NCBI GenBank assembly: GCA_965285935.1
Contig: OZ260665.1
Span: 31,310,001 to 31,374,000 of the forward strand
Direction: 5' to 3'
DNA: 64,000 nt
Source of the DNA: Ophelia neglecta
Lineage: Eukaryota
In this document: positions 1-64,000 of the stretch, piece by piece
Layout: every line of letters starts with the position of its first letter
How positions within the stretch are numbered: position 1 is the first letter of the stretch
Program-made: the position numbers

Positions 1-3000
1 GCTGTGATAGCTGAGAAGCAGCAAACAAAGTGTCCATTGTGCCCATGATCTCTAATAACTGCTTCATATAACTAACTTCCTGATCAACGGTGTGTTTAAG
101 TTTCACAAAAAGTTCATCAGTTATTGAAGACTGTCCAATTTCATCCTTATAGAGATCTGAAATGCAGAAAATTAAACAAATAGTAAATGCTGCTGGCCAG
201 ATCTATATTCTAACTTTAATGGTGCCTGGAAGTTTTTACAAGAAGTAATGTAAGTTTTTAGAAAAAAAAACTGTCTGTGACGACTGATGTATACTGACCT
301 AGAATCATGTTGGTGACATCGAGTAGTGTACAAGTGAACTTCGGATTACTGATGTTTCTGAAAGAAAGGGGTAAATTTACACTACATCCTTTGGTACTAG
401 ATGTAATATCAAAATTAATATTGATTAAATTGTTAACGCAATTAGAAAATGTGTGTATTTTCAATCAAACATTGAGCATAAAACAGATATGAGCTTACTT
501 TTGCAGGAATTTGAGAATGATTGATAATGACTTCTCATCGCGCCCGGCCAGGGCAGATTTGATGCTCCCCCGTCTTATCAACTCCTGTATGACACTGACC
601 GTCACCTCAGGCTGCCTCATCCTCACGTGTATCTAAATGTAACAGGACATTGTACCAGTCTGACAATACACTTAATGGGAAATGAATCACACCTATCTAA
701 ATATACTGTAACCTAGTATCTTAACATACAGACTGCTCGGTGATATGAATATTAATGTCTAGCCACAGTGTCTACTCTTTACATTGTACTTTTATTGTGA
801 AGGTATCTATCTCACAGCACTGTTGATTGAGAAATGAGAGATGCCACACTCACACTGAGAGCTGCGTCCAGCGCCTTGGTGTGTTCAAATCTCTTAAAGT
901 ACCGGTCATATTTAGACAGCTGTTGTTTTCTCTGGTGCTTTACTATGTGATCCTCCTAAAATAAAAGTGTGTCATTACTTAAACATTAAAACTGACACTA
1001 TATCTGCTCTTTACAACAACAAGCAAGCTCTGTAGGCAACAGGTCATATAATTATTTGGTTTGCTAGTTTGCCAATAAGAAATGTAATGTTATTTATCAA
1101 TTTACCTCATCTGGCGAATAGGTTTTGCTAGGGAGAGAAAATTTGTATGAGGATTTTTTTCTTTTCTTTGCAGCCAGTTTCTCTGCTTCTTCCTCCTCGC
1201 TGGTCTTTCTTCTCTGGGTTGACAACAAGCCGTCAGCCATCCCTACGGCTATCACACTGTCATCGGGCTGCAAACAACATCAGAGGTTACAAAACAGGAT
1301 ACTGCCTAGAGCAGGCGCTAACAAACAACACCCAAATATGTCCAAGATATTATCTTGTGCACCAGCAATAAATTGTAGTCATTCTTAATATTTAATAAAT
1401 ATTTATGTACCATTTACTTAAAACTGATTGCTTCAAATAATTAATATATGAATGCAATAGTAGTTTTCGTATTCAATCTTAAGAGACAATATTATGTGTG
1501 CATACATGTAGATCTATATATTCAACAACTTACAGAAACTCCTAAGCTAAGAATGGCCGAAGGATAGTCCAAAGAATGTACTACTTGGTACGTGCTAACA
1601 TCATAGATTTTCACATGTCTGAAGAGAGAGGAATCTCATATGGAAAACTTGAAATAATTTGTGTTCAGCTCCTTCCAAAGATGGCAGCACTGGATGTGAT
1701 ACTAGCCACACTTGACTAAGTAGAGGAGTAGTGAAGGAGCTTTTTTTCGGCATTGATCAAAGAATGTAACCATCATCAGACATTTTACATTTTATCAAGA
1801 TTAATTAAGTTGTCATATGAATTAATAATACAAGTTAAACCATTCACAATGAATGTTGTACTTAGGGTGACTTATTATGGAAACAAAACTAATATTAATT
1901 TCTCAACTTTCTACTTTCATACTTATGGCTGTTTTACACAATATTTCTTTTTAATCTTTTGAGGTTGTCATATTGACTACAGTTATCTATGAACAGAGTT
2001 TTAGTCTCTGACCTGTCCAGGGAGCCTGAGAGCAGACGTTTGTAGTCACAACAGAAGCACATACAAGTGACGGTCTTGTGGTGGTTGCTGACACTAGCTA
2101 ACAACTTGCCTCCAACCAATGCATCCCATACCTTGATTGTGCTGCCACCTACCAAATAAAGCGTGTATTGTGATAACTGGTTTCATATGAATATCTGATC
2201 AAATTATTTTAAACATAAATAATAGACTATTAAAACCAAATTTCTTAATATTTTTTGTATTGCATACATTAAGTATAATGCATAGTATAATATATACACT
2301 AAGTATATATATATTATACTTAGTGTGAAATCCTTCTTAGACATTGTATCAGCATTTAAGGAAATAAAGTAGAATCTTCAGCCATTCAGATGTTAAAATT
2401 AAGGAAGCTGGTGGGTCAGCCTATTAGTTTAAGGGCCAAACCTTTCAGCAGTGCAGAATCACACCAGACTTGACAAAAGTATTCATGGAAGATACAGATA
2501 ACAAAAATACTTTTTTTAAGGCTTGCACATGGGTCATTTCAGAGATCATGACCCCAAAAAAAGGGTATGATTAAATCAATCCACACCAAAATTTCTTGAT
2601 AAAGAAAACAGAACATTAAGAAAATGGCAAAGTCTACCCCGGTATACATTACGTACATTGGTTGTTAAATGAATGGCACAAAAAAATATAAGACTTGGGC
2701 TACAACAATATTTTCAACAAGGTCTTGAAAAAATCTCCAGAGTCATCAGTCAGAAAGAGGTGTGCAAAACTTCATTTCATTCCTCCTAAACACGCTCCCC
2801 ATTTTCAATGGAAGTTGGTCATAAAATATTGAATATAAGCCGGGTAGAAGAATTACGTTTGTGTATAATGATACTTGTTAAGCCGGGCATCCTTCAGCTG
2901 ACGGTGGGGGCCGAGTTCTGTGGCGAGGCTGAGCAGGGGTTGTTTTATCTGGCCTTGCTGGCCATAACTTGCGACAATGTCTTGACCATTTCTGACTGGT

Positions 3001-63000: not shown

Positions 63001-64000
63001 AGGGTACTAAGATACTGCAGCCATATGCATTGACAAATAGAAAATTCAGTTTTATTCTAGAAGTACCTGGTAGTTAAATTTTCCTAAATAAATTACATCT
63101 TATCTCATGTTTGTCTGTTAAGATCAGCTATCAACAGAAATCTTCAGAAAGAGGGAAAAAAGTCATAATTTACATGTGTCTGTTTCTTGAGATATGGTGG
63201 ATGAGAATTTCCAGTAGAATGTCTTGTGGCCGCTTTTGACCGCAACATATATATAGTTATGTGTGGGACTGGCAAATTTTATCAGTGTTTGATCTGCATA
63301 AGCTTATGTTAGAAAATTCCACAGAGGTCAGGGGTTGCAGTCAGATTGCTGGGATGAGATTAGGCAATTGAACAGAATCACAGATGAGACTGCCCCTCCA
63401 ATCAGGGCTGGTAGATACCACATGTTAACCACAGATTACAGTGGTCCATCTCTCGATACCTCCCATTAATTGATACGGCCAATGATAACTAGCAAATCCT
63501 GGAGACACACTTAATGTCCACTTTGTACTAGAATGATAAAAAAATTGGAGGGGTAACAGGGCAACCTGCCCTGGAAAGTTAGTCATTCTATGCTTTATGG
63601 GTGCTCTATTTCTATAGATTGGTTACCCTGTTGTTTTATGGTAGCCCCATTTGTTTCCAGCCTCTATCTGACTTGTTATACCCATTGTGAGTGGCATGGG
63701 TTAGGGAGAGATTTTAGGCAGACAGACCATACACAGGTAATACCTTGCCACTGTTGTAAGGTGTACTGTCATTTAAAGTTTCTTTCTAGGTAACATGACT
63801 TCACCATAACAGAAATGAATGTTAAACTTCTGAGAAACACCCCTTAACCTTATTAATTTATTTAACTTACATTTAATTCTGTTTGATTTAAGAACTTTTT
63901 AAGAATTATTTTTTGGAGATTTGTTTCAACTTTATCATTGCACATAAGTTGGCCACAAACCTTTGATTATGTAAATGTCTAATGAATAGCTCAACCTTGA

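What the first reader, a model, noticed from the sequence alone, without database searches (positions are those of the whole stretch)
2149..64000. UTP15-ARID3/dead ringer as a candidate genomic regulatory block (housekeeping bystander with inflated introns)
Seen: nine UTP15 introns are 141-673 bp, but three are 5672, 7738 and 7419 bp (introns 1, 5, 6). I cannot explain the extra ~20 kb by recognisable transposons, having found only a 177-bp MITE and a ~290-bp SINE-like piece. These introns have the same texture as the ARID3 introns (14.8 kb and >22 kb): blocks of a few hundred bp that are GC- and CpG-richer, alternating with AT-rich spacers. Established: developmental TF genes can keep their enhancers in the introns of adjacent housekeeping genes (e.g. 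Irx-Sowah, Isl-Scaper, Pax1/9-Slc25a21). Inference: the whole 5' regulatory landscape of ARID3 lies inside UTP15, which would lock the pair together. I do not know this pair to have been described.
Basis: partly seen in the sequence, partly recalled or inferred. Interest (0 to 1): 0.7.

Follow-up and report, generated by a model that had tools for sequence, protein, structure and literature searches.

The report
Head-to-head UTP15 and ARID3 genes
A ribosome-assembly gene and a developmental regulator gene point away from each other across one short promoter region, and the first has three long introns of unique DNA that might hold the second gene's switches, though this could not be tested here.

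Summary
ARID3/dead ringer (plus strand) has introns of 14,829 and more than 22,255 bp. One correction: ARID3 probably has a further short coding exon upstream (about 25718-25834). That puts the two start codons 0.8 kb apart rather than 1.27 kb, on either side of the only CpG-island-like stretch in the window.

The three long UTP15 introns look like single-copy DNA:
- no repeat pairs within the window
- no transposon protein domain in 111 non-exonic ORFs
- no Rfam or tRNA match
- only two small inverted-repeat elements, about 0.5 kb together

Their composition matches the ARID3 introns, but the window holds no control region to compare against.

The regulatory-block interpretation could not be tested. 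No eukaryotic genome collection was available. The two lists of homologues share no species. Paper supplements were closed. Seven full-text searches found no mention of this gene pair. The arrangement fits a regulatory block, a plain bidirectional-promoter pair, or neutral long introns. Verdict: real structure, untested inference, modest interest.

The parts
24820..24912 (-). UTP15 exon 1 (ATG at 24912; 93 nt)
   Evidence: tblastn of P0004 from residue 1; GT donor, phase 0
19148..24819 (-). UTP15 intron 1, 5672 bp
   Evidence: GC 0.380, CpG o/e 0.41
17432..19147 (-). UTP15 exons 2-5 (19147-19055, 18381-18197, 17931-17808, 17486-17432) with small introns of 673, 265 and 321 bp
   Evidence: WD40 matches to exons 3 and 4
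9694..17431 (-). UTP15 intron 5, 7738 bp
   Evidence: CpG o/e 0.37; sense-strand T>A skew +0.058, p 6e-5
9568..9693 (-). UTP15 exon 6 (126 nt)
2149..9567 (-). UTP15 intron 6, 7419 bp
   Evidence: CpG o/e 0.34; sense-strand T>A skew +0.043, p 4e-3
1..2148 (-). UTP15 exons 7-13 (2148-2013, 1618-1534, 1267-1106, 955-854, 632-499, 357-299, 156-1) with small introns of 394, 266, 150, 221, 141 and 142 bp. Exon 13 runs off the window.
   Evidence: the UTP15_C domain (PF09384) scores above its cut-off in exons 10, 11 and 13, each scanned alone
24913..25717 (.). Shared 5' region between the two first coding exons. Its CpG-island-like core is 25221-25610 (CpG o/e 1.01, 24 CpG); the wider CpG-rich block is 24651-25800 (o/e 0.84).
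25718..25834 (+). Candidate ARID3 first coding exon (in-frame ATG at 25718, 25766 or 25790; phase-0 GT donor at 25835)
   Evidence: The Owenia ARID3 N-terminus (..EGFKPL) matches 25805-25831. Four of five full-length homologues align from 26157/26160, upstream of ATG 26184. Only one homologue supports the exon itself, weakly (E 0.056, and 2.4 with the whole protein as query). No Pfam family.
26157..26843 (+).
   Evidence: Named hits are ARID3A of Lingula and Mizuhopecten.
26844..41672 (+). ARID3 intron, 14,829 bp
   Evidence: CpG o/e 0.34
41673..41745 (+). ARID3 exon encoding the start of the extended ARID domain (LYELSDDSKRREFLDDLFSYMQKR)
   Evidence: Dead ringer 1KQQ E 5.4e-8, ARID3A 4LJX E 1.1e-6; tblastn of five ARID3 proteins
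41746..64000 (+). ARID3 intron, more than 22,255 bp, running off the window
   Evidence: No further ARID3 exon found by tblastn or by motif scan
9796..9972 (.). 177-bp MITE-like element in UTP15 intron 5 (CAGTG...CACTG ends, TA-rich flanks)
   Evidence: 15-bp perfect inverted arms at 9790-9804 and 9964-9978
8166..8474 (.). 309-bp inverted-repeat element in UTP15 intron 6 (59-nt arms, 76% complementary)

Best explanation
Shown. UTP15 (minus strand) and ARID3/dead ringer (plus strand) form a divergent pair. Their first coding exons lie 0.8-1.3 kb apart, on either side of the only CpG-preserved stretch in an otherwise CpG-depleted 64 kb. UTP15 is spread over at least 24.9 kb because three of its twelve introns are 5.7-7.7 kb long. 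Those introns look like single-copy DNA. They carry the same T>A sense-strand skew as other transcribed introns. Only about 0.5 kb of them is a recognisable mobile element.

Inferred. The CpG-rich stretch is a promoter region shared by both genes and unmethylated in the germ line. ARID3 has no intergenic space upstream, so any upstream cis-regulatory element it uses must sit in UTP15 introns 1, 5 or 6. My preferred single reading is that part of the extra 20 kb is kept because it carries such elements, which makes UTP15 a bystander host. Whether this locks the pair together over evolutionary time, as a true genomic regulatory block would, is not shown.
For: - Gene models and intron sizes.
- Start codons 805-877 bp apart with the candidate upstream exon, or 1271 bp without it.
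- CpG o/e is 1.01 at 25221-25610 against 0.33-0.41 everywhere else.
- No similarity between separate parts of the window at E<=1e-5, apart from the arms of one inverted repeat just above that threshold.
- 0 of 111 non-exonic ORFs of 70 aa or more carry a transposon-type Pfam domain.
- 0 tRNA and 0 Rfam matches even at E<=1.
- One A/T run of 10 nt or more in 64 kb, so no poly(A) tails of recent retroposons.
- The sense-strand T>A skew is positive in all 7 intron sets and changes sign at the shared promoter.
- Irimia et al. 2012 (PMC3514665, passages read) list four predictions for such blocks. The first two are a trans-dev gene beside a non-developmental gene, and extensive intron sequence in the bystander. 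Both are seen here descriptively.
Against: - No comparative or functional evidence of any kind was obtained.
- ARID3 has more than 37 kb of its own introns, which could hold all its enhancers.
- The long UTP15 introns match the ARID3 introns in composition, but there is no control region, so this may simply be how non-coding DNA looks in this genome.
- ARID3 lacks the long or multiple CpG islands reported for human block targets (Akalin et al. 2009, PMC2688929, passages read). Only one block of 0.4-1.1 kb is present.
- ARID3 introns are as CpG-depleted as UTP15's (o/e 0.33-0.34). This does not fit an unmethylated developmental domain if the genome is methylated in a mosaic way (oyster methylome, PMC4378273, passages read).
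- The 118 residues of intron read-through in P0002, a relative 86% identical in exon 7, find no match in the window. So the roughly 350 bp next to exon 7 is not conserved there.
- Non-autonomous or old repeats cannot be seen without a repeat library for this genome.
Confidence: 0.4

Rival explanations
1. A plain bidirectional-promoter pair with neutral long introns. The two genes share a CpG-rich promoter region by chance or for co-regulation. The three long introns are the ordinary long tail of this genome's intron length distribution. ARID3 is regulated from its own large introns and downstream DNA.
For: - Divergent orientation, start codons 0.8-1.3 kb apart, one shared CpG-rich block.
- Irimia 2012 and Akalin 2009 treat 5'-5' pairs less than 1 kb apart as the signature of bidirectional promoters and co-regulation, a class distinct from regulatory blocks.
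- Composition is uniform across all long introns of both genes.
- ARID3 has more than 37 kb of its own introns.
- The number of long ORFs in the introns is about what chance gives under dinucleotide-preserving block shuffles: 113 against 102.5+/-10 at 70 aa or more, and 26 against 17.8+/-4.0 at 100 aa or more, reached by 2 of 60 shuffles.
Against: - A ribosome-biogenesis gene and a developmental transcription factor are not an obvious co-expressed pair.
- In many invertebrates neutral intron growth comes mostly from transposon insertion (general knowledge), yet almost none is recognisable here.
- The transcription start sites are not known.
Confidence: 0.35
2. The long introns are mostly old or non-autonomous repeats (MITEs, SINEs, Helitron-like pieces, solo LTRs). 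These tools cannot recognise them without a repeat library for this genome.
For: - Two small inverted-repeat elements are present, both in UTP15 introns (9796-9972 and 8166-8474).
- Inverted 14-mer seeds within 1.5 kb number 7 against 0.7+/-0.9 in simulations. All 7 come from those two elements.
- My tests see only coding relics, in-window copies and tRNA-like pieces.
Against: - No pair of related copies anywhere in 64 kb.
- 0 of 111 ORFs carry a transposon domain.
- One A/T run of 10 nt or more.
- The T>A sense-strand skew in introns 5 and 6 suggests long residence in the transcription unit.
Confidence: 0.2
3. The long introns hold unannotated nested genes or non-coding RNA genes, which account for their length.
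For: There is a slight excess of ORFs of 100 aa or more (26 against 17.8+/-4.0; 2 of 60 shuffles reach it). The five longest ORFs in UTP15 introns lie in the GC-richer blocks.
Against: - No Pfam family for any of them.
- The two ORFs sent to the Atlas, both in the ARID3 intron, scored 1543 and 1169, where 91 in 100 proteins of known families reach 2300.
- Rfam found nothing even at E<=1.
- GC-richer DNA has fewer stop codons by chance.
Confidence: 0.05

Closest known systems
Genomic regulatory blocks: a developmental target gene with enhancers in the introns of a bystander gene. Example: otx1b-ehbp1 in Irimia et al. 2012 (PMC3514665, passages read). Shh-Lmbr1 and Pax6-Elp4 are recalled, not checked here.
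   Same: A developmental transcription factor lies next to an unrelated housekeeping gene, and a subset of the housekeeping gene's introns is much longer than the rest.
   Different: Conserved synteny, conserved non-coding elements and enhancer activity are all unknown here. The scale is about 25 kb rather than hundreds of kb. The supposed target and bystander would start within about 1 kb of each other in one CpG-rich block.
Bidirectional-promoter (5'-5') conserved pairs such as Hspe1-Hspd1 (Irimia et al. 2012, passage read; the 1-kb definition is in Akalin et al. 2009)
   Same: Divergent orientation, a very short gap between the genes, and a shared CpG-rich region.
   Different: Those pairs are functionally related and co-expressed. 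UTP15 and ARID3 have no evident functional link, and their expression was not examined.
Transposon-poor regions around developmental genes
   Same: 64 kb with almost no recognisable mobile elements and no repeats within the window.
   Different: The repeat content of the rest of this genome is unknown, so depletion cannot be claimed.

Membership tests
Genomic regulatory block (target plus bystander) | A trans-dev target gene next to a functionally unrelated non-developmental gene | tested here: met
   ARID3: Dead ringer and ARID3A matches and named Lingula and Mizuhopecten ARID3A hits. UTP15: named homologues and the UTP15_C domain in three exons. The orientation is head to head.
Genomic regulatory block (target plus bystander) | Extensive intron sequence in the bystander gene | tested here: inconclusive
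   Three of 12 introns are 5.7-7.7 kb and nine are 673 bp or less. There is no genome-wide or orthologue baseline to say they are inflated.
Genomic regulatory block (target plus bystander) | Microsynteny conserved across distant lineages | not testable with these tools
   No eukaryotic genome collection was open. The UTP15 list and the ARID3 list share no species. Supplements were closed. Seven full-text searches found no mention of the pair (one search was on another subject).
Genomic regulatory block (target plus bystander) | Conserved non-coding elements in the bystander's introns | not testable with these tools
   There is only one indirect glimpse. The intron read-through part of P0002 (118 aa next to exon 7) finds no match in the window.
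Genomic regulatory block (target plus bystander) | Enhancers in bystander introns that act on, or contact, the target promoter | not testable with these tools
   This needs ATAC/H3K27ac, 4C or Micro-C, and reporter assays.
Genomic regulatory block (target plus bystander) | Target gene spanned by long or multiple CpG islands (reported for human targets, Akalin 2009) | tested here: not met
   There is one CpG-rich block of 0.4-1.1 kb at the shared 5' end. The rest of ARID3 has CpG o/e 0.33-0.34, with only marginal 200-630 bp patches. This feature was defined in vertebrates, so it carries limited weight here.
Bidirectional-promoter gene pair | Opposite strands, divergent, start sites within about 1 kb | tested here: inconclusive
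   The pair is divergent. Start codons are 805-877 bp apart with the candidate upstream exon, or 1271 bp without it. The transcription start sites are unknown.
Bidirectional-promoter gene pair | Co-expression of the two genes | not testable with these tools
   No expression data were available.
UTP15 (U3 snoRNA-associated protein 15) | N-terminal WD40 propeller plus C-terminal UTP15_C domain | tested here: met
   WD40 matches in exons 3, 4 and 7. PF09384 scores 34.2, 49.6 and 35.2 bits in exons 10, 11 and 13 against a cut-off of 33.1. The exons are collinear with residues 1-507 of the 528-residue Tubulanus UTP15.
ARID3 / Dead ringer subfamily | Extended ARID domain, and REKLES domain | tested here: inconclusive
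   Only the first 24 residues of the extended ARID lie in the window, together with the ...HHWTFEEQFKQ junction shared with ARID3 homologues. The rest of the ARID domain and the REKLES domain lie beyond the window.

The most novel reading that the evidence does not exclude
UTP15-ARID3 is a conserved lophotrochozoan (or older) genomic regulatory block. ARID3 enhancers sit in introns 1, 5 and 6 of a ribosome-biogenesis gene. Target and bystander start within about 1 kb of each other inside one CpG island yet respond differently to the same enhancers. That would make it a natural test case for enhancer-promoter specificity at minimal distance.
Probability: 0.15. Interest if true: 0.5.

Novelty: new member of a known kind. 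Interest (0 to 1): 0.3.

Why it matters
If the link is conserved, it adds one more bystander-target pair to the several hundred already catalogued. It would have one unusual feature: the housekeeping bystander and the developmental target would share a promoter region less than 1 kb long. Enhancers lying in the bystander's own introns would then have to tell apart two promoters that are almost on top of each other. If the link is not conserved, this is an ordinary divergent gene pair with a few long introns.

Tried and rejected
- Same-chromosome test. I compared the 'longest contig' values of the UTP15 hits (Tubulanus, Octopus, Argonauta, insects, whales) with those of the ARID3 hits (Lingula, Mizuhopecten, Potamilus, Owenia). 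No species occurs in both lists, so the test fell through.
I did not pursue this further.
- The first ARID3 search, restricted to residues 165-220, gave one hit. It is an intron read-through ORF.
- ESM Atlas look-ups of two protein-like ORFs in the ARID3 intron (29950-30348 and 30587-30943) gave low recognition and no usable family. I treat both as chance ORFs.
- The Pfam scan of 104 ORFs gave five single-member matches at E 6e-4 to 9.5e-3: FA_desaturase, DIM1, Tis1_ImmP, DUF5854 and DUF3413. None is transposon-like and I read them as chance.
- Five of the 119 ORFs were not scanned. They are alternative frames over the ARID3 exon (four) or over 1122-1388 (one).
- Long ORFs looked strongly in excess under mononucleotide block shuffles. 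Most of that excess disappeared under dinucleotide-preserving shuffles, so I do not count it as a sign of hidden coding relics.
- Rfam at gathering score and at E<=1, and Aragorn, found nothing.
All searches were made exon by exon.
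Full report
**The window.** It is 64,000 bases with no N, 39% G+C, and has few tandem repeats. It is not human. The best named relatives of its two genes are lophotrochozoans: Tubulanus for UTP15, and Lingula, Mizuhopecten, Potamilus and Owenia for ARID3. I did not try to name the species. 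All protein searches were made exon by exon.

**UTP15.** An ORF piece at 1934-2182 (minus strand) finds proteins named U3 small nucleolar RNA-associated protein 15. The Tubulanus protein is 75% identical over the matched part. tblastn of the Tubulanus, Octopus and Ciona proteins lays 13 collinear pieces on the minus strand, from 24912 down to base 2. They cover residues 1-507 of the 528-residue Tubulanus protein.

Reading the junctions gives GT-AG ends and consistent phases throughout. The exons are:
- exon 1: 24912-24820
- exon 2: 19147-19055
- exon 3: 18381-18197
- exon 4: 17931-17808
- exon 5: 17486-17432
- exon 6: 9693-9568
- exon 7: 2148-2013
- exon 8: 1618-1534
- exon 9: 1267-1106
- exon 10: 955-854
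- exon 11: 632-499
- exon 12: 357-299
- exon 13: 156-1 (runs off the window)

The introns are 5672, 673, 265, 321, 7738, 7419, 394, 266, 150, 221, 141 and 142 bp. Exons 10, 11 and 13, scanned alone, each pass the Pfam cut-off for UTP15_C.

**ARID3.** The plus-strand exon ending at 26843 (...HHWTFEEQFKQ, donor GT at 26844) finds ARID3A of Lingula and Mizuhopecten. It also finds many unnamed relatives: 283 at E<=1e-3 and 9 at E<=1e-30. Several of these are genomic read-through ORFs that stop just after the same FEEQFKQ junction, so this intron position is shared.

The 73-nt exon at 41673-41745 matches the start of the extended ARID domain of Dead ringer (1KQQ, E 5.4e-8) and ARID3A. Full-length ARID3 proteins match nothing else in the window, and neither does a motif scan.

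**A correction to the ARID3 model.**
- Four of five full-length homologues align from 26157/26160. This is directly after a strong acceptor (polypyrimidine tract plus CAG at 26154-26156) and 27 nt upstream of the ATG at 26184. All five carry further residues N-terminal to their match.
- The Owenia N-terminus (..EGFKPL) matches 25805-25831 in a frame with a phase-0 GT donor at 25835 and in-frame ATGs at 25718, 25766 and 25790.
- This single weak match (E 0.056) lies in the right place and on the right strand. I take it as a candidate first coding exon, followed by a 322-bp intron.
- With it, the two start codons are 805-877 bp apart instead of 1271 bp.

**The shared 5' region.** CpG observed/expected is 0.33-0.41 in every part of the window, with TpG/CpA at 1.3. 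That is the usual trace of germ-line methylation. The exception is the DNA between the genes. The stretch 25221-25610 has o/e 1.01 and 24 CpG, and the wider block 24651-25800 has o/e 0.84. This fits one unmethylated promoter region serving both genes. The transcription start sites are unknown.

**What the long introns are made of.**
- Self-comparison finds no interspersed repeat pairs. There are 0 hits at E<=1e-5. With very permissive settings the best hit is the pair of arms of one inverted repeat.
- Of the 119 ORFs of 70 aa or more, 114 were scanned against Pfam. None of the 111 that are not gene exons has a transposon-type domain. Five single chance-level matches to unrelated families were seen.
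- Aragorn finds no tRNA-like sequence. Rfam finds nothing at gathering score or at E<=1.
- The window holds one A/T run of 10 nt or more.
- Two small inverted-repeat elements lie in UTP15 introns. The other is a 309-bp element at 8166-8474. Together they make about 0.5 kb of the 20.8 kb.
- The number of long ORFs is close to chance once dinucleotide content is kept: at 100 aa or more, 26 against 17.8+/-4.0, reached by 2 of 60 shuffles.
- The sense strand is T-rich over A in all seven intron sets. The skew is +0.058 (p 6e-5) in intron 5 and +0.043 (p 4e-3) in intron 6, and its sign flips at the shared promoter. I read this as long residence of these sequences in their transcription units. That interpretation of the skew is recalled knowledge.
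- None of this can detect old or non-autonomous repeats. That needs a repeat library for this genome.

**The 'texture'.** The window is patchier than a uniform Markov model. The GC standard deviation is 0.051 against 0.027, and twice as many windows are CpG-rich. The three long UTP15 introns and the two ARID3 introns cannot be told apart by GC, its spread or CpG density. The window contains nothing else to compare with, so 'same texture' may only mean 'same genome'.

**The regulatory-block reading.** Irimia et al. 2012 (passages read) give four predictions. The first two hold here descriptively: a trans-dev gene beside a non-developmental gene, and extensive intron sequence in the bystander. 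The other two, conserved non-coding elements and enhancers in those introns, could not be tested, and neither could conserved synteny.

That paper and Akalin et al. 2009 (passages read) also treat divergent pairs less than 1 kb apart as bidirectional-promoter pairs, which is a different class. This pair fits that class at least as well.

Human block targets are reported to carry long or multiple CpG islands. ARID3 here has none beyond the shared block. It is also as CpG-depleted as its housekeeping neighbour. This would be unexpected for a developmental gene in a genome methylated in a mosaic way, as in the oyster (passages read). If this genome is methylated throughout, the point tells us nothing.

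From memory, not from any call: human UTP15 (5q13) and the three ARID3 genes (19p13, 15q24, 9p13) are not linked. An ancient bilaterian block is therefore unlikely, though a lophotrochozoan one remains possible.

**Literature.** Six full-text searches for this pair, or for either gene with synteny terms, found nothing relevant. The main text of Irimia 2012 mentions neither gene. By the occurrence counts, the main texts of Simakov 2013, Touceda-Suarez 2020 and the cephalopod microsynteny paper do not mention ARID3. Their supplementary pair lists, which could well contain the pair, were closed.

**Verdict.** The structure is real and was described accurately, with one added exon. The absence of a transposon explanation holds as far as these tools can see. 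The regulatory-block inference is plausible from the geometry but untested, and two ordinary rivals remain about as likely. If true it would be one more member of a well-known class, with one interesting feature: target and bystander would share a promoter region of less than 1 kb.

Noticed in passing
Homologues align from the acceptor at 26156/26157, and the Owenia N-terminus matches 25805-25831. A small 322-bp intron (25835-26156) would follow.
   Followed up: partly
window 1-64000; exception 25221-25610: The whole window, including more than 37 kb of ARID3 introns, is CpG-depleted (o/e 0.33-0.41, TpG/CpA 1.3). Only the shared promoter core keeps its CpG (o/e 1.01). Either the genome is methylated throughout, or this developmental gene lies in the methylated compartment.
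   Followed up: partly
window 2149-17431 versus 26844-64000: The sense strand is T-rich over A in all long introns of both genes, and the plus-strand AT skew changes sign at the shared promoter. This is as expected for transcription-associated mutation bias.
   Followed up: partly
window 25207-25214 (+): A TATAAAAG sequence lies on the plus strand just upstream of the CpG-rich core. It is a possible TATA box for an ARID3 start site near 25240, which would give a 5' UTR of about 480 nt.
   Followed up: no
window 26129-26156: A consensus-like donor (cagat|gtaagt, GT at 26130) lies only about 25 nt before the strong acceptor at 26156. That is too close for the two to form one intron, so at most one of them pairs with a distant partner.
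   Followed up: no
window 26520-26680: The ARID3 N-terminal exon has an Arg/Glu/Asp-rich low-complexity run (RERDRE...). TRF reports an imperfect 36-bp periodicity at 26565-26635. This run drew many low-complexity hits in the protein search.
   Followed up: no
protein P0059 (unnamed source, 387 aa): A relative's read-through ORF carries the conserved N-terminal ARID3 exon segment twice (residues 19-105 and 136-242 both align to 26220-26507). This suggests a local duplication in that genome.
   Followed up: no
window 36549-37070 (+): This 173-aa ORF is the longest outside the genes, and overlapping frames are also open. It has no Pfam family. A length of 170 aa or more was reached in 18 of 60 dinucleotide-preserving shuffles, so it is probably chance.
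   Followed up: partly
window 23475-23600, 46933-46955, 50771-50851: Short runs of G or C (reading as poly-Pro or poly-Gly in ORFs) recur at three places. One lies beside a 24-bp tandem repeat at 23475-23525. The weak similarity between them is due to low complexity.
   Followed up: no
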